A DNA stretch of 33,005 bases. Origin: Squatina squatina (lineage: Eukaryota). Position 1 is the first letter of the stretch. Each line of letters begins with the position of its first letter. The notes beneath the pieces are model-generated. The model had not been told where the DNA came from, did no database searches, and saw nothing but the letters and a program-made list of their open reading frames with translations. The position numbers and the translations under genes were made by a program. The stretch is from the NCBI GenBank assembly GCA_031763465.1, contig JARFOE010000007.1, positions 3,720,484-3,753,488 of the forward strand. Reading direction: 5' to 3'. Positions 8,516 to 25,056 of this stretch are shown here, one piece after another.

Positions 8516-9914
8516 CCTCATCATTTGTTGTTGCTCCATGGGAGGGTACCGGTCCCAAACTGGGTTTCTCAAAAAATGATGCTCACTTCTTGTATGCAAA
8601 ACCATGAAGACTCTCTGCTGGCTGAAGACTATAGACTGCCTTCAGAGGTCATCTCACCTGCAGGAGTATAATTCCAAATCTTCTGGATCCTTTGCAATCT
8701 TAAATACCTGAATAAGATCACCTCGATACCACTCTCTCCCCAAATCAGGCAAAAGTAAACATCCTAGTACCCTGAAACACATTCATCAACATAATTGACG
8801 TTTTTTGCATTCCCTCAACAGGCCAAGCTGTCCTTGTGACACAGTGTCAGGCTCTGTACACTCATGCTGGGAGTGGATCAGTATTTTGCACAAAACATCA
8901 CGGTGGGCTCTATTCCTCAAGCTAGACATTCTAAGATCCTACCTACACATGGAGCCATGTTGTGATGGTAGTCTAAGCGTGTTTCCCACAAAAACATTCC
9001 CTCCTCTCTGGTTTCCTGTATTCCCACTGTTCATTTTAATTCCCCAACCTCATGATTTTGTATTTTTGTACAATGTATTCTCCACTTTGTGGCCTAAAAA
9101 TCTCTCAGCAAATGCTCTACTTCTTCCCTATTTATGCTCCTCCCAATTTGGTGTAATCACCTCTTTGTTGGTGCAGCTCTCCTAACATCGTCATTATGTG
9201 GATTAAATATGCACTTTTTCCAAAAGCATGTTCAGTTTATAAACCAATAGACATACAATTTATTTAATATTAATGGGTAAATTAATAGTATTCAGTGCAA
9301 AACAATTAAACTTATTATCCTTGATTCATATCAAAACAATACCCTGAGCTCTCTTTCAAGTTAACTAGTTTCCAAAAAACGATGCTCACTTCTTGTATGC
9401 AAAACCGTGGAGTGACTGACTCTCTGCTGGTTGAAGGCTATAGACTGCCTTCTGAGGTCAACTCACCCACAGGAGTATCATTCCAAATCTTTTAAACATG
9501 TACTGAAACAAAGCCCTTTCACAAAAAACTGCATTTTATGTAACTTTATCAGATAACTATTCTTTGTCAATTGCACAGCATGTTTGTATGACAGTTGAAG
9601 TACCGGTGATAGTTGGAACTTATTACTTTGCCCATCCAGTCATCAAAGAGAAAACAGGTACAAACCAAGGCCTCTACATTCAAATTAACACCGATATATT
9701 AAAAACATTTTTGTTTCAAGAGGAATCAATCACAACATTGTATTCAATTCCTTATCAATCCTCAATCAGGCAGTTGTCTGGGTTCCTATTCAAGTACAAT
9801 AGTGGCAATCACACCAAGGACTTCAAGATCTATATGTTTCTGCTTGGGCAAAACTATGGCAGGTGGACTTCAATGTGGGAACTTGGAGAAAGACAAATCA
9901 GAATATTTTCTTAA

Positions 9915-11578: not shown

Positions 11579-11726
11579 CAGGAGCGACAGTCTGCAACGT
11601 ATTCTGGTCCACCCTCTGCGTGCTGGTTAAGTGGCGTTGACTGGAGCCAGAGAACAACAGGTAGAGGGTTACATCCTCTTCGACTGTGTGCTCATCACCC
11701 AAGAGCACAGAGAGCACAGACTCACC
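11579..11726 (-). CDS. AKAP13: AKAP13 (AKAP-Lbc) N-terminal coding exon, equivalent to the second coding exon in human
   Basis: Encodes GESVLSVLLGDEHTVEEDVTLYLLFSGSSQRHLTSTQRVDQNTLQTVAP, matching recalled human AKAP13 GDCVVTVLLAEEDKAEDDVVFYLVFLGSTLRHCTSTRKVSSDTLETIAP and closer to it than to the paralog ARHGEF28. Pyrimidine-rich acceptor ...ttctttccacag, donor gtaagtga; 148 nt, phase 0 to 1. Confidence 0.93.
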
Positions 11727-13809: not shown

Positions 13810-14450
13810 CTGGCGTGTGGATGTCCCACACCTCCAGATTCAGCTTGAGATGGCGATTGAAGAGGTTGATGGAGTTGGCGTTGGTGAGAGCTGATGAGGA
13901 CGACTTGAATCTTGCCGACACCCAGCTGGTAGAATGCACGAGATGACAATATCTCTTTACTATGTAGACTCCAAAGACCCCAAAACATCCCCCTCGCTTA
14001 CATCTTTAAGGCGATTGTCTCTGGTTAGCAACTTCGACCATACCACATTCCTTTCCTATTGTTTGGTCATGTATCAGTTGGGGAGAGTCTCTATTCAGCT
14101 GGTTTTGATTATTCCAACTGATCTCATCCTGTTCTCAAAAGCCATTACTCAGGTCAAGATTCATTTACATAACGTACAGCCTCAAATCATTCAGCCAAGT
14201 GCAGTCTATATTGTGCAATCTGAGAATGCCATTTGGAAGCACAGACAATAGCTCATAACAAATCACAAAAAAGGAGTTCCCTCAGAAGGTCACAGATGGC
14301 CTTTAATTTCGTCAAGAGGGAGAATCTTCCCTCATTACATCATTTGTTCGATACATGGGCAGCCTGGTGTTATAACCAGCTTGTAATTTCCCTCCAAATC
14401 AGAGGGAGGCAGTCAGGCTCCTGAGCAATCAACTCATCCTGTACTAGTTG
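13810..14450 (-). mobile_element. Highly degraded CR1-like LINE ORF2 remnants
   Basis: Minus-strand peptides IWREITSWL*HQAAHV (cf. WI.SWL..R.Q.V) and WVSARFKSSSSALTNANSINLFNRHL (cf. V..WN.LP...V.A.SIN.FK..L). Confidence 0.35.
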
Positions 14451-15604
14451 GGATAGATTTACTCGGTTTGACCCAGCCCTGGACCAATAGGCGATGAAAG
14501 GACTACAGTGAGCAAGACTTTACATAAATTATCCAATCCTTCAAATTGAGCCTCTCGCTAGCCAATCATGAACTAGATCTGGCCATACATCTCATGGTCC
14601 AGACTGTCCCCATTGGACACTGGCTGCACCACAAGGCAGAGAAAGGACTTGAGAGAGAAGTAATACTAACAAAAATTATAGGAATACATTTGTAATCTTT
14701 ATGGGCTCTTTTCCTTCTATGGTGAGCGAACAAACAGTTACTTNNNNNNNNNNNNNNNNNNNNNNNNNNNNNNNNNNNNNNNNNNNNNNNNNNNNNNNNN
14801 NNNNNNNNNNNNNNNNNNNNNNNNNNNNNNNNNNNNNNNNNNNACCCAGGATGCAGAACCGTTCTATTCACAAAATAAAACCCAGCCTCTAGCAAGTGAC
14901 CCGAAAAATTCAGTGAACCTTTTAAACTGAAGGTTAATGACTTGCTCTGAGCAAATTAAACCAAGTGTTTAGCAGGTGCAGGCTTGTGGCAAAGGCCAAG
15001 ATCATCTTTGCTATTTAAACAGATTACCAGAGTGCTGCAAACGATAATTTTAAACACAAGGGAATGACGATTATTTCTTCAATTAGCAACAAGAAGCTGG
15101 TGTTTTAGTAAAATGTCCCAGCTGCGGACTCNNNNNNNNNNAGCTGCCGCAATGTTGGAGGAATTCGATATTAAAAGGTTGCCCATTAATAGGTTTGTTT
15201 TGTTATGCATTTATATACAGCAGATGCCCAACGCACAGCCCTGCATGCGGTGAGATTACGATTCACCCCATGCAGTAATAGTTCTGCTTTTGGTGCTTGC
15301 TGAAAGCCAGAGAATGAAGAATCGCCGGTCACCTGTGATTCTTGTTCAAGTTATACACTTGTTTTAGTTGCGTGTTGGGATAGAGAATGTCTCTCTGTGC
15401 CTTAGCGTCCTTCGTCCTGCTGACACTTCAACACCCAGTCAGCCGATGCAAGAATTAAAATTCATTTATAATTTTTATTCTCCTTTTCCGGTTATCTTTC
15501 TTTCTCTTTTGCCCCTGCACCCCACGTTGCATCCTTGCACCTTGAAACTCCACATTTAAAAAAGGAATTCTCAGAGAGAAGAGCGTTGAGATTGTTCGAT
15601 GTGG

Positions 15605-15883: not shown

Positions 15884-17029
15884 NNNNNNNNNNNNNNNNN
15901 NNNNNNNNNNNNNNNNNNNNNNNNNNNNNNNNNNNNNNNNNNNNNNNNNNNNNNNNNNNNNNNNNNNNNNNNNNNNNNNNNNNNNNNNNNNNNNNNNNNN
16001 NNNNNNNNNNNNNNNNNNNNNNNNNNNNNNNNNNNNNNNNNNNNNNNNNNNNNNNNNNNNNNNNNNNNNNNNNNNNNNNNNNNNNNNNNNNNNNNNNNNN
16101 NNNNNNNNNNNNNNNNNNNNNNNNNNNNNNNNNNNNNNNNNNNNNNNNNNNNNNNNNNNNNNNNNNNNNNNNNNNNNNNNNNNNNNNNNNNNNNNNNNNN
16201 NNNNNNNNNNNNNNNNNNNNNNNNNNNNNNNNNNNNNNNNNNNNNNNNNNNNNNNNNNNNNNNNNNNNNNNNNNNNNNNNNNNNACCTCGCTCAAACCAT
16301 TACAAAAGCAGCTTTTACTGATGCCAAAGCACCAACAGTGGACACGTTTCTGGACAATTTACCATCGTGGGAGTTGACAGCTTCTCAACGGCCAGAAAAA
16401 AAAAAGGGATTACAAGTATCTGACACTCTTGACCCGAATTCTCAGCGGTTCTAACAATTTTCTGGAGTTGCGTGAACATTTTCACAAGTCGACACTGACA
16501 ACAGACAATGTGCAAGCTTTTCTCAAGCAGATTCATGAAGCTCTGCATCAAAAGAACTCCCTCCCCGGAGCGCTGCTACTATTCCACTTCCCTTTCTTCT
16601 TGAGCATTACAATAGCAAGGATGCTGACCTTGAAATCAAGAGTCCTGGGACCCTTAGCCCTGGACTAACAAAAAGCTCTTTGGGGTCATTGTGAGAGTTC
16701 ACACATGGGAGTGCTGAGCCGAGCCTCTGTGTCCTCCTACACAGCTCAAGCAGCAGAATGGAGAACGTTGTATAGAAATGAAAAGGGATGAAGATAGAGA
16801 GAGTATCTGTACAGCTTATTAAAAATGTGTGAAAATGACTTATTATTCTGCCACACTAACACGGTTTGGGTTTNNNNNNNNNNNNNNNNNNNNNNNNNNN
16901 NNNNNNNNNNNNNNNNNNNNNNNNNNNNNNNNNNNNNNNNNNNNNNNNNNNNNNNNNNNNNNNNNNNNNNNNNGGGCTTTCCCTACAGATGCAAACTTCT
17001 CTGTCTCAACACATTCAGGCTCAAACACT

Positions 17030-17095
17030 TGAAAGAAAAAAAAGATTTGCATTTATATAGCGCTTTTCATGACCACCGGGCGTCCCAAAGCGCAA
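17030..17095 (-). mobile_element. L2/Deu-SINE 3' tail
   Basis: aaagatttgcatttatatagcgcttttcatgaccaccgggcgtcccaaagcgc. Confidence 0.7.
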
Positions 17096-17597
17096 GAGAA
17101 GAGAAACCAATCCCCCTAATCGAGCATTTTATCAAAAGCAACCTGGTTAAATATCAACAAGTGAGCCGTCAATAATAAAAGATAAAAAGGAAAGAAACAA
17201 AGTAACAAGTGCAAAATGAATTTCAATCTACCTTCAAAGCATGTGGAATTTTAGCAAATGTAATATAGTACGGAAGCAATGTGTAAATGGGAATTGGCTT
17301 AGCATCAAATTCTCACGTTATTATGTAGATGTAGTGTCTCAGAGATTTGGTGTAAAAAAAAAATTATAGCTTCCTTGAACTGTAAATGAGCTCCCACTGA
17401 AACTTTCCCACAGTACAAGATTAACTTGATATGTTCCATCTCGTACCCACTGACCAGCTGGAGCAGTTTGGTGAGAGACTAGTCAACTGTGTAACCGTAA
17501 ACCATTAATGAAAGGAATTTACAGAGTTTATCCTCTAACCAGGAATGGGCTCACAAAAAAAGACAGTTTCATTTTCCTTAATCTGTACCTTTTGCAG

Positions 17598-17789
17598 GTC
17601 TATCCTGAAACCCAATTGGCAAATGATGAAGTTACAGCACAGCCTGAATTCAACAAGTGGTTCAGTGACAGGCTGTCCTGCACGATTACTCTTCAACACT
17701 CTGCATTGGACATAGTTTCTGAAACATCTGTATATACATATTTGAACACAAAACACTATAAATACATAATTCCACAGGAAAAGTCAGAG
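17598..17789 (+). CDS. Candidate internal exon of an unidentified gene
   Basis: Strong acceptor (ttttccttaatctgtaccttttgcag) and donor (GAG|gtaagg). 192 nt = 64 codons, open only in phase 0: VYPETQLANDEVTAQPEFNKWFSDRLSCTITLQHSALDIVSETSVYTYLNTKHYKYIIPQEKSE. Confidence 0.45.
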
Positions 17790-17861
17790 GTAAGGAAGGT
17801 CATTCAGTCCACTGAAGTTCATCCTTCTAGAAATGAAGGATGACTGAAATCTAAATGAAGC

Positions 17862-18270
17862 CACCAGCTTGGCTCAGTTGGTAGCATTCTTGCCTCAGGT
17901 TCAGAAGGTTAAGAGCTCCAGCCCGGCTGCAGCATTTGTACCTAATCTAGGTTGGCATTCCAGTGCAGCACTGAGAGAAAGCTGCATCGTTGGAGGCGCT
18001 ACACTTCAGATGTAAAAGGAAACGCAGGCCTTATCTGTTCTGATCGTTCAAGTGGAAGTAAGAGATCCCATGGGTGTGAAGAAGAGTGAGGGGTTCTCCC
18101 AGTGTCCTGGCCAACATTCCTCCCTCAATTAACACTACCAAAACAAAGCAACTGGTCATCGGTCATTGCTGTCTGTCGGACCGTACTATGCACAACGTAG
18201 CTACTATGGTTGCCTACAAAACAGCGGTCAATGCATTTCAGAAGCAATTCATTGGATGTAAAGCACTTTA
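17862..18270 (+). mobile_element. Near full-length Deu-domain SINE (SacSINE1-like)
   Basis: tRNA-like head tggctcagttggtagcattcttgcctc, Deu core aagagatcccatgg...gaagaagagtgaggggttctcccagtgtcctggccaacattcc, and L2-like tail cattggatgtaaagcacttt. Confidence 0.8.
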
Positions 18271-19324
18271 GCATGCAATAAGGCAAGTTATTTCTGTGTT
18301 TTGGAATTTTTGTTACCTGTAAAAGCAGGTAAATATCGATGGTCTTGCCTATATTTAATGAATACACATAAATAACAGCTACATCTTATCTACAGTCAAA
18401 CAGCTTGTGAACTTCGATTATTTTAATTTCTCAAGTTGGGCTTGCGCTATTAAGATTTGCCAAAAAAAATCCACATCCTTCCACATTATATTAAGGNNNN
18501 NNNNNNNNNNNNNNNNNNNNNNNNNNNNNNNNNNNNNNNNNNNNNNNNNNNNNNNNNNNNNNNNNNNNNNNNNNNNNNNNNNNNNNNNNNNNNNNNNNNN
18601 NNNNNNNNNNNNNNNNNNNNNNNNNNNNNNNNNNNNNNNNNNNNNNNNNNNNNNNNNNNNNNNNNNNNNNNNNNNNNNNNNNNNNNNNNNNNNNNNNNNN
18701 NNNNNNNNNNNNNNNNNNNNNNNNNNNNNNNNNNNNNNNNNNNNNNNNNNNNNNNNNNNNNNNNNNNNNNNNNNNNNNNNNNNNNNNNNNNNNNNNNNNN
18801 NNNNNNNNNNNNNNNNNNNNNNNNNNNNNNNNNNNNNNNNNNNNNNNNNNNNNNNNNNNNNNNNNNNNNNNNNNNNNNNNNNNNNNNNNNNNNNNNNNNN
18901 NNNNNNNNNNNNNNNNNNNNNNNNNNNNNNNNNNNNNNNNNNNNNNNNNNNNNNNNNNNNNNNNNNNNNNNNNNNNNNNNNNNNNNNNNNNNNNNNNNNN
19001 NNNNNNNNNNNNNNNNNNNNNNNNNNNNNNNNNNNNNNNNNNNNNNNNNNNNNNNNNNNNNNNNNNNNNNNNNNNNNNNNNNNNNNNNNNNNNNNNNNNN
19101 NNNNNNNNNNNNNNNNNNNNNNNNNNNNNNNNNNNNNNNNNNNNNNNNNNNNNNNNNNNNNNNNNNNNNNNNNNNNNNNNNNNNNNNNNNNNNNNNNNNN
19201 NNNNNNNNNNNNNNNNNNNNNNNNNNNNNNNNNNNNNNNNNNNNNNNNNNNNNNNNNNNNNNNNNNNNNNNNNNNNNNNNNNNNNNNNNNNNNNNNNNNN
19301 NNNNNNNNNNNNNNNNNNNNNNNN

Positions 19325-19580
19325 GTCACATATAGGCCCAGACCGGGTAAGGACGGCAGATTTCCTTCCCTAATGAACATTGGTGTCCTGGCCAATATTT
19401 ATCCCTCAACCAATATCATTAAAATTGATTACTGTTTATGGGACCTTATGGTGTGCAAATTGGGTGCTGTGTTTCCTACATTTCAACAGGAACTACACTT
19501 CAGAAGTACTTCATTGGTTGTAAAAAAAAAACCTTTGGGACGTCCTGAGGTTATGAAAGACCGGTTTTAATGCCAGTCCC
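19325..19580. mobile_element. Composite: minus-strand SINE fragment (19325-19380) joined to the plus-strand 3' half of a Deu-SINE
   Basis: gtcacatataggcccagaccgggtaaggacggcagatttccttcccta, then ggtgtcctggccaatatttatccctcaacc...tttgggacgtcctgaggttatgaaag. Confidence 0.75.
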
Positions 19581-20419
19581 TTGTTTCCTTTCCCGGTTTT
19601 CTTCAACTGAGCACTGTGCTGACTCGTCTCTTTTTCTTCTTGCTCCCTTTGTACTGCACATATTCTCCAGGCTTCTCGCTTTCAGCTAGCACCAAGGTCA
19701 GCTTTGCCACATCTCTATTCCTGCCACCATTCCTCTTCACCTGTTTCTGCCTACAGCCTTGCGGTTAATGCTGACTTGATCAAAACACAGGTAGACAACA
19801 GACGCAACACAAAACACTGACCTTTTCTTTAAAATGACAATTCCCAATACCATGCTGGCAATCAGAGAGCCCTGACAAATAAAAGTAGAATGTTAATTAA
19901 GTAACAAAATAGGTCAAAAGCGATAAACAAGTACTGTAGGAAGACAATTAATTTTGAGATGTTTCTCTAATATGAATTCCTGGTATAAGACCTAAAGCAG
20001 AATTCAATTTTTGATCAAGAGACAATACAAAAACAACACCACCTAGAAATGACTGTCACCATAAAGGCAAACACTGGCAGTAATTCAGGGAGGCGAGTCC
20101 ATAAAACTGAGAGTGCAGCTTGGCGCTTGTTTGCTGATCAGCTGTGCTGCATTCTATATAGCCAGCAATGCAAGAAGTGTTCTATAACCTATTGCACACA
20201 ATTCAGGTGTAACTGCAATTAAGGCTATTAATACCAGCAGTTCATACCAGTTCATACAGGGAATGAACTGTAGTTATGAGCTTCCACATATAATTTGGGA
20301 GTTGGAGTGGAACCAGAATCTCTTGTGGTTTAGGTTTCCAGGAAATGACAATGTTGTTCTGTCTGCACAGCATGATGGGAGTTGAATTACGAGCACCCCT
20401 GGTACTCAGGTTGACTAAG

Positions 20420-20850
20420 GAACGTAAGAATTAGGAGCAGGAGTCGGCCATTCGGCCCCTTGAGCCTACTCTGTCATTCAATAAGATCATGGCTGATCTT
20501 CGACCTTAACTCCACTTTCCCACCCGAACTCCATATCCCTTGATTCCCCTCGCGTCCAAATATCTATCAATCTCAACCTTGAATATACTCAACGATTCAG
20601 CATCTGCAGCCCTTTGGGGTAGAGACTTCCAAAGATACACAACCCTCTGAGTGAAGAAATTCCACCTCATCTCAGTCTTAGATGGCCGACCCCTTATCCT
20701 GAGACTGTGACCCCTGGTTCTGGACTCCCCAGCCAGGGGAAACAACTCCCAGCATCTATTCTGTCAATCCCCCTCAGAATCTTATGTATTTCAATGAGAT
20801 CAGCTCTCATTCTTCTTAATTCCAGAGAGTATAGGCCTAATCTACTCAAT
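20420..20850 (-). mobile_element. CR1-type LINE 3' fragment
   Basis: Encodes FPLAGESRTRGHSLRIRGRPSKTEMRWNFFTQRVVYLWKSLPQRAADAESLSIFKVEIDRYLDARGIKGYG, with the canonical tail. Confidence 0.92.
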
Positions 20851-21525
20851 GGAAGATGAAAAAGAGTAGGAATAGACTGCCAGATGTGGAGAATGGTACC
20901 AAGGTCATACTGTCTATCCCCAGCATTACACTATCTAGTGGGTGCACTGCTAACAGAGGATTATTGAAGAGCTATGGTTTAGCGATGGTTTGTGACCAAA
21001 CTGTACCATTTCCTTCATAAAATGCTCCCAAAAAGCATATACAATCCAGATAGCACTGCCAGTGACCCTCAAGATCACCACAGTCCTACTGTGACCACCA
21101 GAACAGCATGATGAAGATAAGAACATGAGAACATAAGAAATAGAATGCTCAGTTCCTGGCGGGTCCCACAATACATTTATTTTGCAGCAACAATCTGTGC
21201 CAGGCTTAGCCGGCGGGAAGGTAGAGTGGAAGGTGGTGGCTATTTTCTTCAACCTAGAAGCAATGCACAGTTCTCTGGAAGGTACAGATGGCATTTCCCC
21301 TTGCAGCCACCCCTGTTGTACTGTTGTCCTGAGCGGAGAATGGCTTGGAGAAGAAAATCGAGTAATATTCCTTTCACTGAAGAAAACGATTGTGAATGAT
21401 ATATTTGCATTTGGAAAAAAAAATCAATAAAATGTTTTTTAAAAAACTACAGCTTCTATAATCATCGACAGGCTAATTTCATTGATGCTGATATTTCTGT
21501 GGTTGCTTTTTTCACTTTGTTACAG

Positions 21526-21609
21526 GAGGAGAAAAGACCGCACCCCAGAGACTACTGGGCCATCCCCTCCACTGCCTACACTGTACTAATGAGATGTGTT
21601 CGGGAAGGG
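21526..21609 (+). CDS. Candidate internal exon of an unidentified gene
   Basis: Acceptor ttttttcactttgttacag, donor GGG|gtaagg. 84 nt = 28 codons; phase 0 reads EEKRPHPRDYWAIPSTAYTVLMRCVREG (phase 1 is also open). Confidence 0.4.
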
Positions 21610-21773
21610 GTAAGGCTGTTAGTTGCCTCCTGAGAAATGAATAGATGCTTCAGATGTTGCAGTTTTTATATTTATGCAAGTGTGCTTTGTGTATATCATT
21701 TCCTAAATTAAAATTGCCGAGGGAAAGGCTCAGTCGCCGTGTCCCCATAGTGTTTTTTTTTGTTTCCATCAAG

Positions 21774-22025
21774 AAAGGTGCAGCGATGATTCCAGTCGCT
21801 TGGAATCACAGACCAGAACACCCATGGAAGTCTCCTCACCATCAGGGTGCTCCTCATCAGGAGGGTGCTCCTCATCAAGTGGATGCTCCTCACTACGAGG
21901 GGGCTCCTCACCGTGAGGGGTGTCCTCACGAGAAGGGTGCTCATCACAAGTCTCTGGTTCCTTGTTTCAAATTTGGAGTGTTTATCGACCGGGTTCCCCC
22001 CACACAACTTCTGTCATTGATTTAA
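21774..22025 (+). CDS. Candidate terminal exon of an unidentified gene with a His/Pro/Gly hexapeptide repeat
   Basis: Acceptor tttttttttgtttccatcaag after a 164-nt intron. Phase 0 reads KGAAMIPVAWNHRPEHPWKSPHHQGAPHQEGAPHQVDAPHYEGAPHREGCPHEKGAHHKSLVPCFKFGVFIDRVPPTQLLSLI*. Confidence 0.35.
   Translation, partial: KGAAMIPVAWNHRPEHPWKSPHHQGAPHQEGAPHQVDAPHYEGAPHREGCPHEKGAHHKSLVPCFKFGVFIDRVPPTQLLSLI
21831..21953 (+). repeat. 18-bp minisatellite, about 6.5 units (gctcctcaY-N6-ggK)
   Basis: Units start at 21831, 21849, 21867, 21885, 21903, 21921 and 21939. Confidence 0.9.
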
Positions 22026-22154
22026 TTTCCCCTTCTTGAGCTGCCCAATCCTAATGTCCCCATAATGGACGGCCTATCTGTATATCCCTCTGGGCACCCC
22101 TCTGTTTTCTTAGGTTTTGGGAGAGGAGGGAAAAGATCAGGAAAAGCTTCAGTT

Positions 22155-22207
22155 TTTTTTATTCGTTCCTGGGATGTGGGTGTCGCTGGCGAGGCCGGCA
22201 TTTATTG
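22155..22207 (-). mobile_element. LINE/SINE 3' tail truncated by a 10-N gap
   Basis: gttcctgggatgtgggtgtcgctggcgaggccggcatttattg, identical to the start of the element at about 22332. Confidence 0.75.
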
Positions 22208-22319
22208 NNNNNNNNNNATGTGGTTTCAAAAACAAATTAAAGTGATTATATGTGTTTGCACAGTATCAAAACTCTACTTGGGTCATAGTTTGTATTCTTA
22301 TTGCCTAGTGTGATTTGTT

Positions 22320-22620
22320 TTTTTAAAGTTTGTTCCTGGGATGTGGGTGTCGCTGGCGAGGCCGGCATTTATTGCCCATCCCTAGTTGCCCTTGAGAAGG
22401 TGGTGGTGAGTCACCTTCTTGAACCGCTGCAGTCCATGAGGTGAAGAGTGATGTTAGGGAGGGAGTTCGAGGATTTTGACCCAGCGACGATGAAAGAACG
22501 GTGATATATTTCCAAGTCAGGATGGCGTGTGATTTGAAGGGGACTTGAAGGTGATGGTGTTCCCATGCGCCTGCTGCACATGTCCTCCTTCTAAGTGGTA
22601 GAGGTTGTGGGTTTGGGCTT
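22320..22620 (-). mobile_element. CR1-clade LINE 3' end (second family)
   Basis: Minus strand reads PNPQPLPLRRTCAAGAWEHHHLQVP, then (frameshifted) GSKS.NSLP and GLQRFKKVTHHHLLKGN*, followed by the tail gggcaataaatgccggcctcgccagcgac. Confidence 0.85.
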
Positions 22621-23137
22621 GTTGTCCTGTCCAATACATTATTGTTGTTGCGTGAAGGATATTCAGGGATTGCTGCATCCTTTCCAGCTTTTGCATGGGC
22701 CATCAACATACTTTGTTGAAATACATAACCTGCGACTGCAGGAGAGCAAAGCACAGAAGAACAAATTAAAGCTTCTGTGTTTTTTATCCTTGTTAATGTG
22801 TTGATATAAAATGAACAGAGACAGACAAGTTACACTGGTGGCAAGGAGGGACTGCATCAGCTCACCGATGAAACAGTGATACTCTCTGTGCAGTTCAGAG
22901 GATGTATTCCCACTCTATGCGCATATGCTGGTTGAAGCAGAATTGGAACAAGTAGAAGGCCTGACACAATAGGTCTTGCCTATCATGTGGCACTGAGGCC
23001 GAGCAACCTGCAAAAATATATGCAGCTGCTGGTCCACGCCATAAACGGCCATTGGCCCCTGCACATTACCCCAGGCATAGGTGACAGCATTACAGACATA
23101 GATTGTGCTGGCATCCACTCCAAACTGGACTTAAATT

Positions 23138-23256
23138 CAGAAAATGCTGGAAACGTCAGAGTTCTGACGAAAGGTCACTGGCCTGAAACGCTAATCCCCC
23201 ACCTTCATCTCTCCACAGATGCTTACTGGCCTGCTGAGTGTTTCCAGCAGTTTCTG
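23138..23256. mobile_element. Penelope-like-element-derived palindromic repeat with a hammerhead-like core
   Basis: Ends cagaaaatgctggaaac and gtttccagcagtttctg form a 16/17 inverted repeat. Internal ctgacga-aaggtcactggcct-gaaacg and ctctccacagatgc...cctgctgagt. Confidence 0.7.
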
Positions 23257-23838
23257 TTTGTGATATAGATGCAAGTATAACCCCGGGACAGGGGAGTTGC
23301 TCTGCATCAATCTGCTCTTCAGCTTCCTAACGTCAACAGCAGCAGCGGCGGCAGTTGCTAGGAGACCAGTCTACACCTCCCCCTCCCACCATTCTGCCAC
23401 AAGTGGTCCACTGGAAAGGAGTGGGGAAGAGTTACAAATCTTCAAAAATAAATTGAAGCATCCCCTTACTATTGCACTGCCTTTTTAAAAAAAAAATTCA
23501 AGTAAACCTGCTAGGGCCTTCAAGAGGTTAGTCAGCCGTAATACCATTAATTGGTCAAGCTGGACTTCGGCAAACTGATCTAAAGCTTCAGGAGTAAGTA
23601 ATTGGAAGAGAAATACTTGAGCTTTCAGTTTACACACTATTAGCCGTTAGATCACTAAATGAGTAGATTGGCTGCGGAGCAAGCATTAATCCCTCCATCC
23701 AGCAACGAGGAAGCTCAGGCTAATTAAATCTCTTGGCANNNNNNNNNNNNNNNNNNNNNNNNNNNNNNNNNNNNNNNNNNNNNNNNNNNNNNNNNNNNNN
23801 NNNNNNNNNNNNNNNNNNNNNNNNNNNNNNNNNNNNNN

Positions 23839-24875: not shown

Positions 24876-25056
24876 GGTTGATAGTATATTTGGGAATGAT
24901 GGTAGGAGCCTTCATCTGGGGCGGTCTGGCAGATAAAATGGGCAGAAGGTATTGTCTGATCATTGCCCTCAGCATCAATGGAGTCTTTGTCATCTTCTCA
25001 TCGTTTGTCCAGGGCTACGGCATCTTCCTGTTCTGCCGACTACTTTCAGGAATTGG
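24876..25056 (+). CDS. SV2B: Synaptic vesicle glycoprotein 2B exon (N-terminal MFS transmembrane helices)
   Basis: Encodes (G)LIVYLGMMVGAFIWGGLADKMGRRYCLIIALSINGVFVIFSSFVQGYGIFLFCRLLSGIG, with MFS motif A (GGLADKMGRR) and the SV2-typical SSFVQGYG.FLFCRL.SGIG. Acceptor tttcgcag, donor gtaagt; 181 nt. Confidence 0.95.

What the first reader, a model, noticed from the sequence alone, without database searches (positions are those of the whole stretch)
17598..22025. Candidate unannotated spliced gene between AKAP13 and SV2B: three phase-0 exons giving a 175-aa orphan peptide
Seen in sequence: three plus-strand segments in unique DNA have canonical acceptors, and the first two have gtaagg donors (17598-17789, 192 nt; 21526-21609, 84 nt; 21774 to a stop at 22025). 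Both internal segments are multiples of 3, and the 192-nt one is open only in phase 0. Splicing all three gives an uninterrupted 64+28+83 aa frame (VYPETQLAND...QEKSE|EEKRPHPRDYWAIPSTAYTVLMRCVREG|KGAAMIP...APHxxG repeats...LLSLI*). It matches neither SV2B nor AKAP13, and I recognise no family. Inference: a lineage-restricted protein-coding gene, or else a spliced lncRNA or SV2B 5'-UTR exons, lying intergenic or antisense within an AKAP13 5' intron. Caveats: an ~830-N gap separates the first two exons, no start exon was found, and the last two exons are also open in phase 1 (GEKTAPQRLL...ERCSDDSSR...GCSSSGGCSS...*).
Basis: partly seen in the sequence, partly recalled or inferred. Interest (0 to 1): 0.72.

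Follow-up and report, generated by a model that had tools for sequence, protein, structure and literature searches.

The report
Shark orphan-gene candidate, likely chance exons
Between two known genes of a fragmented shark genome lie three single-copy stretches with splice-like ends that join into a 175-residue reading frame, but no relative turned up and the third stretch is weak, so this is most likely a chance pattern, with a roughly one-in-four possibility of a shark gene missed so far.

Summary
The three segments, their ends and the 175-codon joined frame are as described, single-copy and outside repeats. E1 (17598-17789) and E2 (21526-21609) have splice sites as strong as true exons nearby, with branch-point motifs. 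Such a chain arose in 34 of 3055 simulated windows, 1 of 3055 with the branch-point criteria added (thresholds set afterwards). E3 is weak: AAG acceptor, no branch motif, a competing AG 23 nt upstream, non-coding-like codon signal, and an 18-bp minisatellite that behaves like other such arrays in this genome. No homologue was found for E1 or E3, although a control exon retrieved SV2B from 15 cartilaginous fishes; none of 25 SV2B isoforms contains the segments. Expression could not be tested. The window is a patchwork lacking SV2B's start exon, so 'intergenic' is unproven. My odds (judgement): chance pseudo-exons 0.45; coding gene using E1+E2 0.27 (the 175-aa form about 0.08); non-coding exons 0.2.

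The parts
17598..17789 (+). E1: exon-like segment, 192 nt, open only in phase 0 (64 codons); acceptor TTTTGCAG, donor GAG|GTAAGG
   Evidence: 8.2/10.9 bits; AG-free zone 29 nt, branch motifs at -27 and -17, no GC step; phase periodicity in top 3-6% of GC-matched non-coding frames; single copy; no homologue
21526..21609 (+). E2: exon-like segment, 84 nt, open in phase 0 and after a phase-1 intron; the most exon-like of the three
   Evidence: 12.5/9.0 bits; AG-free zone 52 nt, four branch motifs, GC step +0.27, above all 26 unexplained exon-like segments and all 8 known exons measured; no coding periodicity in either frame; single copy
21774..22025 (+). E3: weak acceptor (AAG) followed by an 83-codon frame to a TAA
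   Evidence: 7.5 bits; AG-free zone 21 nt, no branch motif; the AG at 21749-21750 would give a stop after 12 codons; non-coding-like; no homologue
21832..21947 (.). 18-bp minisatellite, about 6.4 copies, giving the PHxxGA repeats; 4 of 6 frames are open across it
   Evidence: pN/pS 0.72, neutral P 0.35; other 18-bp arrays give equal or lower values
18497..19324 (.). 828-N gap inside the putative first intron; could hide a further exon
16974..23738 (.). assembly piece holding E1-E3, bounded by 100-N gaps of unknown true size
14484..14721 (+). possible start exon on another piece: four CCAAT boxes, then ATG directly before a donor (phase 0 with E1); not significant on its own
   Evidence: donor 8.4 bits; single copy; link to E1 is inference only
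24876..25056 (+). SV2B second coding exon (context; E2 would join it in frame after a phase-1 intron)
11579..11726 (-). AKAP13-like 5' coding exon (context; name recalled, not from a call)
   Evidence: 14.5/10.6 bits

Best explanation
The three segments are most likely pseudo-exons, splice-like signals that the cell probably skips, whose joined 175-codon frame is likely a coincidence helped by a GC-rich minisatellite. Shown: the signals, single copy status, open frames, absence of detectable homologues, weakness of E3. Inferred: they lie in the long 5' introns of SV2B/AKAP13 or between the two genes, are read, if at all, only as part of SV2B-sense pre-mRNA, and are removed with the intron, so no 175-aa protein is made.
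For: Exon-like segments at these thresholds occur at 4.6 per simulated window and at a like rate in the real flanks; full chains in 34 of 3055 windows, enough to be met often in a scan of many windows. Cryptic sites outnumber true ones about tenfold (PMC4702124, one passage). No homologue of E1 among 1.84 billion representatives: the 4 hits are sums of weak repeat matches, best single domain 8.5 bits; none in word searches of 113-2000 aa (E1, 0 of 5 candidates) or 147-2000 aa (E3, 0 of 27), while an SV2B exon of like length retrieves cartilaginous-fish proteins. Joined frame scores below 10 of 10 true coding windows in both periodicity models, likelihood ratio 0.04 and 0.42; first model gave 0.55, 1.1, 0.38 for E1, E2, E3. 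E3 acceptor is atypical. The repeat shows no significant synonymous bias and resembles other 18-bp arrays.
Against: Only 1 of 3055 simulated windows had a chain with branch motifs and AG-free zones at both internal exons. E2's GC step exceeds all 26 comparison segments. E1's phase periodicity is in the top 3-6% of GC-matched non-coding frames, ratio 2-6, and E1+E2 scores 4.4 in one model (0.5 in the other). All three junctions are phase 0, the commonest phase in vertebrate genes (recalled). No open two-exon chain other than those in the window appeared in the flanks. E2 and E3 were not run against the 1.84-billion library, lengths near the query and proteins over 2000 aa were not covered by the word searches, and a fast-evolving orthologue can be missed.
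Confidence: 0.45

Rival explanations
1. E1 and E2 are internal coding exons of an unannotated, lineage-restricted or fast-evolving gene on the SV2B strand, whose start and other exons lie in gaps or on unplaced contigs; E3 is either its last exon (175-aa form, about 0.08) or a bystander.
For: True-exon-grade sites and branch motifs; chain rate 1 of 3055 with all criteria; E1 open for 64 codons in one phase only and with coding-like periodicity; most SV2B exons are also missing from the scaffold, so missing exons are expected; a phase-0 ATG|GT exists at 14719-14721 behind four CCAAT boxes.
Against: No homologue despite 15 cartilaginous-fish species in the database; E2 and E3 lack coding periodicity; single-sequence fold of E1 is not confident, pLDDT 54; the ATG|GT sits three pieces away and such a match is common by chance (my estimate, not computed).
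Confidence: 0.27
2. E2, and perhaps E1, are real but non-coding exons: alternative 5' leader exons of SV2B or exons of a lncRNA running antisense to AKAP13's 5' end; open frames are incidental.
For: E2's acceptor, branch motifs and GC step without coding periodicity; same strand as SV2B, whose start exon is unplaced; lincRNA constraint is mostly at splice signals (PMC4245815, abstract); a human lncRNA named AKAP13-AS1 is mentioned in print (PMC11432684, passages; its position was not checked).
Against: Only 319 of 5829 simulated exon pairs have a joint open frame and 47 of 5829 a full chain, so the open frame is unexplained by this reading; four ATGs in E1+E2 would burden an SV2B leader; no Rfam match.
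Confidence: 0.2
3. E2 alone is a rare in-frame cassette exon of SV2B, inserted between its first two coding exons.
For: E2 is 84 nt, open after a phase-1 intron and joins the SV2B exon at 24876 in frame.
Against: None of 25 SV2B sequences examined (of 42 cluster members) has an insert there: 21 join directly, 2 skip further, 2 lack the region; that frame has the lowest periodicity score, ratio 0.07-0.16; it needs the piece to lie downstream of the unplaced start exon.
Confidence: 0.04
4. E1 is a decayed piece of an endogenous retrovirus envelope gene.
For: A recalled likeness of one short E1 motif to the Env transmembrane region; a weak GP41 match (E 0.034, below cut-off) 3.4 kb upstream on another piece.
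Against: No significant pairwise match to 12 of the 13 env-like loci of G000 that could be compared (best shuffle p 0.09), tblastn best E 2.3 over all 13; no Pfam match for E1; no viral locus returned.
Confidence: 0.02

Closest known systems
Vertebrate pseudo-exons / cryptic splice sites (PMC4702124, one passage read)
   Same: Consensus-grade acceptor and donor pairs in intronic or intergenic DNA with no known transcript.
   Different: Here two such segments and a third acceptor form one open phase-0 frame, and E2 has an unusually sharp GC step.
Taxonomically restricted (orphan) multi-exon genes (general class, recalled)
   Same: Single copy, no Pfam family, no homologue, short low-complexity tail.
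   Different: No transcript, start exon, orthologue or selection evidence; joined frame scores non-coding-like.
Spliced lincRNAs and 5' leader exons (PMC4245815, abstract and outline read; AKAP13-AS1 named in PMC11432684)
   Same: Good splice signals without protein homology, beside divergently arranged genes.
   Different: No RNA evidence; the long joint open frame is not expected.
SV2B of cartilaginous fishes (e.g. XP_078386146.1, XP_067827477.1)
   Same: Same strand, next gene in the scaffold; window exons 92-97% identical to the shark and ray proteins at the second coding exon.
   Different: No part of E1-E3 matches any of 25 SV2B sequences.
18-bp minisatellites of this genome (L076-L079)
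   Same: Period 18, clustered variable positions, several open frames, His/Gly/Pro-rich translations.
   Different: E3's array is short (6.4 units), its exact unit pattern is single-copy, and the comparison arrays were picked by peptide likeness and are not proven non-coding.

Membership tests
Protein-coding orphan gene | Spliced transcript containing the junctions | not testable with these tools
   No reads could be laid on the stretch; see Tried and rejected.
Protein-coding orphan gene | Canonical splice sites of true-exon strength with compatible phases | tested here: met
   Met for E1 and E2; weak for E3 (AAG, no branch motif).
Protein-coding orphan gene | Coding-type codon periodicity | tested here: inconclusive
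   E1 ratio 2-6, E2 0.14-0.5, E3 0.26-0.29, joined 0.04-0.42; 0.55/1.1/0.38; about 2,300-2,400 training codons only.
Protein-coding orphan gene | Start codon, first exon and polyadenylation site | tested here: inconclusive
   Candidate ATG|GT at 14719-14721; ATTAAA at 22236, first AATAAA at 23447; none tied to the segments.
Protein-coding orphan gene | Frame kept and dN/dS below 1 in related species | not testable with these tools
   No other eukaryote genome is held; no look-alike window in this scan.
Protein-coding orphan gene | No homologue outside the lineage | tested here: met
   but none inside the lineage either.
SV2B coding exon | Sequence present in an SV2B isoform | tested here: not met
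   0 of 25 sequences.
Spliced lncRNA or 5' leader exon | Transcribed and spliced, without conserved frame | not testable with these tools
   No RNA or orthologous DNA; no Rfam family in the window.
Dispersed repeat | Multiple similar copies in the genome | tested here: not met
   One match each; these searches skip very common words and give lower bounds, but one search also shows no overlap with local repeats.
Coding tandem repeat (E3) | Synonymous excess between units in one frame | tested here: not met
   pN/pS 0.72, neutral simulation P 0.35; 22 of 27 blocks of other arrays have a best-frame ratio of 0.62 or lower.
Retroviral Env relic | Significant similarity to Env transmembrane region with its cysteine motif | tested here: not met

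The most novel reading that the evidence does not exclude
An unannotated multi-exon protein-coding gene sits on the SV2B strand between AKAP13 and SV2B in this shark lineage, with E1 and E2 as internal exons and possibly a His-rich tail captured from a minisatellite, and it has no detectable relative among the annotated proteins of 15 cartilaginous fishes.
Probability: 0.27. Interest if true: 0.5.

Novelty: not a real feature. Interest (0 to 1): 0.24.

Why it matters
If chance, it is a useful calibration: in fragmented shark drafts about one 33-kb window in a hundred yields such a three-part open chain, and 18-bp minisatellites supply convincing-looking His-rich tails. If real and coding, it would be a new member of a known kind (a lineage-restricted gene) in an otherwise conserved AKAP13-SV2B-SLCO3A1 block, and a testable case of a minisatellite becoming a protein tail; that is of interest to shark genomics and gene-birth studies but opens no new mechanism. 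Seven literature searches listed no paper describing a gene or transcript in this interval in sharks; the library lacks most subscription journals and supplements were not read.

Tried and rejected
Expression: one search for RNA runs on 21380-22140; no RNA holder was listed, which is no evidence either way, and so no reads were laid. Homology: E1 word search, longer proteins only; E1 full HMMER search, four repeat artefacts; E3 word search, longer only; ESM Atlas E1 best 0.76, E3 no usable hit; Pfam for E1, E2, E3 and E3's other frame, none at E<=1; PDB, none at E<=10; metagenome scan, two short chance matches in bacterial-looking DNA; viral scan, no locus. A second E1-like place in G000 (L005, E 0.091, with a stop) was judged chance. 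Fold of E1 alone, pLDDT 54, not searched further. Repeat as coding evidence: clustering of changes looked suggestive (p 0.024) but 8 of 27 blocks of other arrays reach p<0.05 too. Env relic: rejected. WDR93 as the hidden gene: the preprint that names AKAP13 and SV2B places WDR93 outside that pair in monotremes (10.1101/2023.05.22.541847, passages). An off-by-one for the upstream AG was corrected. Earlier scan notes: nothing near, no look-alikes.
Full report
Setting. The window is G000:C7:3720484-3753488 of a 1.52-Gb assembly in 1,152,659 contigs. It is a patchwork of 16 pieces joined by 100-N gaps of unknown size. SV2B is confirmed by protein matches to sharks, rays and chimaera; only three of its coding exons matched in the window, while pieces of the start exon and middle exons are on unplaced contigs. 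The AKAP13 label and the names of flanking genes rest on my recognition of translations, not on a database call. AKAP13 and SV2B are neighbours in monotremes (10.1101/2023.05.22.541847, passages) and lie about 140 kb apart around a goat SNP (PMC9727218, passages), so the true interval is probably far longer than the window shows (inference). E1-E3 share one piece, 16974-23738, which could lie in an AKAP13 5' intron, between the genes, or in SV2B's first introns.

Observation. Coordinates, ends and frames are confirmed. Each segment has one match in G000 and none overlaps the repeats in the piece.

Splice signals. With recalled vertebrate matrices E1 and E2 score like true exons. E1 has a 29-nt AG-free zone and two branch motifs; E2 has 52 nt, four motifs and a GC step of +0.27, larger than in 26 unexplained exon-like segments (maximum 0.16) and 8 known exons (maximum 0.11). 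E3 has an AAG acceptor, 21 nt, no motif; the AG at 21749-21750 would end the frame after 12 codons. Simulated windows hold 4.6 exon-like segments each, as the real flanks do. Of 3055 simulated windows 225 had an open two-exon chain, 34 a three-part chain, 11 and 1 with the branch criteria. Thresholds and features were chosen after seeing the data.

Coding signal. A three-periodic model trained on 2,379 codons of neighbouring genes put all three segments between coding and non-coding (ratios 0.55, 1.1, 0.38). A composition-independent version favoured coding for E1 (2-6), not for E2 (0.14-0.5) or E3 (0.26-0.29); the joined frame fell below all 10 true windows of that length (0.04-0.42), E1+E2 gave 0.5 and 4.4. 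The training set is small and was trimmed by eye.

The His-repeat. It is an 18-bp minisatellite with 4 of 6 frames open; the proposed frame has the lowest pN/pS (0.72-0.75) but neutral simulation reaches that with P 0.35. The E3 peptide matches 109 places in G000 at E<=1 (150 of 379 candidates scored); the four loci inspected are other 18-bp arrays with several open frames, equal clustering of changes and mostly lower best-frame ratios. The repeat is therefore no evidence of coding.

Homology. E1 found nothing real among 1.84 billion representatives; the four hits are bacterial repeat proteins and an insect repeat protein, with single-domain scores of 8.5 bits or less. Word searches for longer proteins were blank for E1 and E3, as were Pfam, PDB and the ESM Atlas. 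The control, a 68-aa SV2B exon, returned 435 proteins, led by cartilaginous fishes; 15 species are named. SV2B is conserved, so this shows coverage, not sensitivity to a fast-evolving protein. None of 25 SV2B sequences examined (of 42 cluster members) matches E1-E3 or carries an insert where E2 would fit in frame. An envelope-relic idea failed.

Weighing. Chance explains the lack of relatives, the weak E3 and the non-coding score of the whole, but must absorb a 1-in-100 to 1-in-3000 pattern. A coding gene explains the strong sites, phase 0 throughout and E1's periodicity, but must be absent from or unrecognisable in all annotated relatives. Non-coding exons explain E2 well but not the open frame (319 of 5829 pairs). 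Cryptic sites outnumber true ones about tenfold (PMC4702124, one passage), and lincRNA constraint is mainly on splicing (PMC4245815, abstract and outline). My rough weighing, a judgement and not a computed result, gives chance 0.45, coding E1+E2 0.27 (with E3 as last exon about 0.08), non-coding 0.2, SV2B cassette 0.04, viral relic 0.02. The two decisive data sets, orthologous DNA and RNA reads, were not available.

Verdict. Observation confirmed; interpretation partly supported; the 175-aa orphan peptide is unproven and probably not real as drawn. If a transcript exists it is a new member of a known kind. Interest 0.24.

Noticed in passing
L071:274-574 (G000:C721582): The SV2B start exon matches for only 27 codons and then runs into unrelated sequence with an open frame and no Pfam family: a chimeric contig or a rearranged copy; residues 29-143 were not found in G000.
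   Followed up: partly
window 14484-14721: Four CCAAT boxes within 140 bases (one of three such clusters in 195 kb; one other, at 19379-19520, overlaps a repeat) followed by ATG|GT; single-copy; could be a promoter for either strand.
   Followed up: partly
window 13898-14248: 117-codon frame with a weak GP41 match (E 0.034, below cut-off); no match to env-like loci of G000.
   Followed up: partly
window 9507-9911: 135-codon open frame antisense to the AKAP13-like gene, no Pfam family of note.
   Followed up: partly
window 16285-16873: Single-copy piece with broken frames that recalled an integrase; Pfam did not support this.
   Followed up: partly
window 22155-22380: The same repeat start appears on both sides of the 10-N gap at 22208, suggesting a local misjoin just behind E3, where its 3' end would lie.
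   Followed up: no
G000, unplaced contigs (L085-L097): Thirteen matches to the retroviral envelope family PF00429 at E<=1; used only for comparison with E1.
   Followed up: no
L020-L059 (200 kb each side): Translations recognised by eye as PIAS1, FEM1B, CORO2B, GLCE on one side and SLCO3A1, ST8SIA2, CHD2, RGMA on the other, plus a TNF-receptor-like exon about 73 kb beyond the window; names recalled, not from a call.
   Followed up: no
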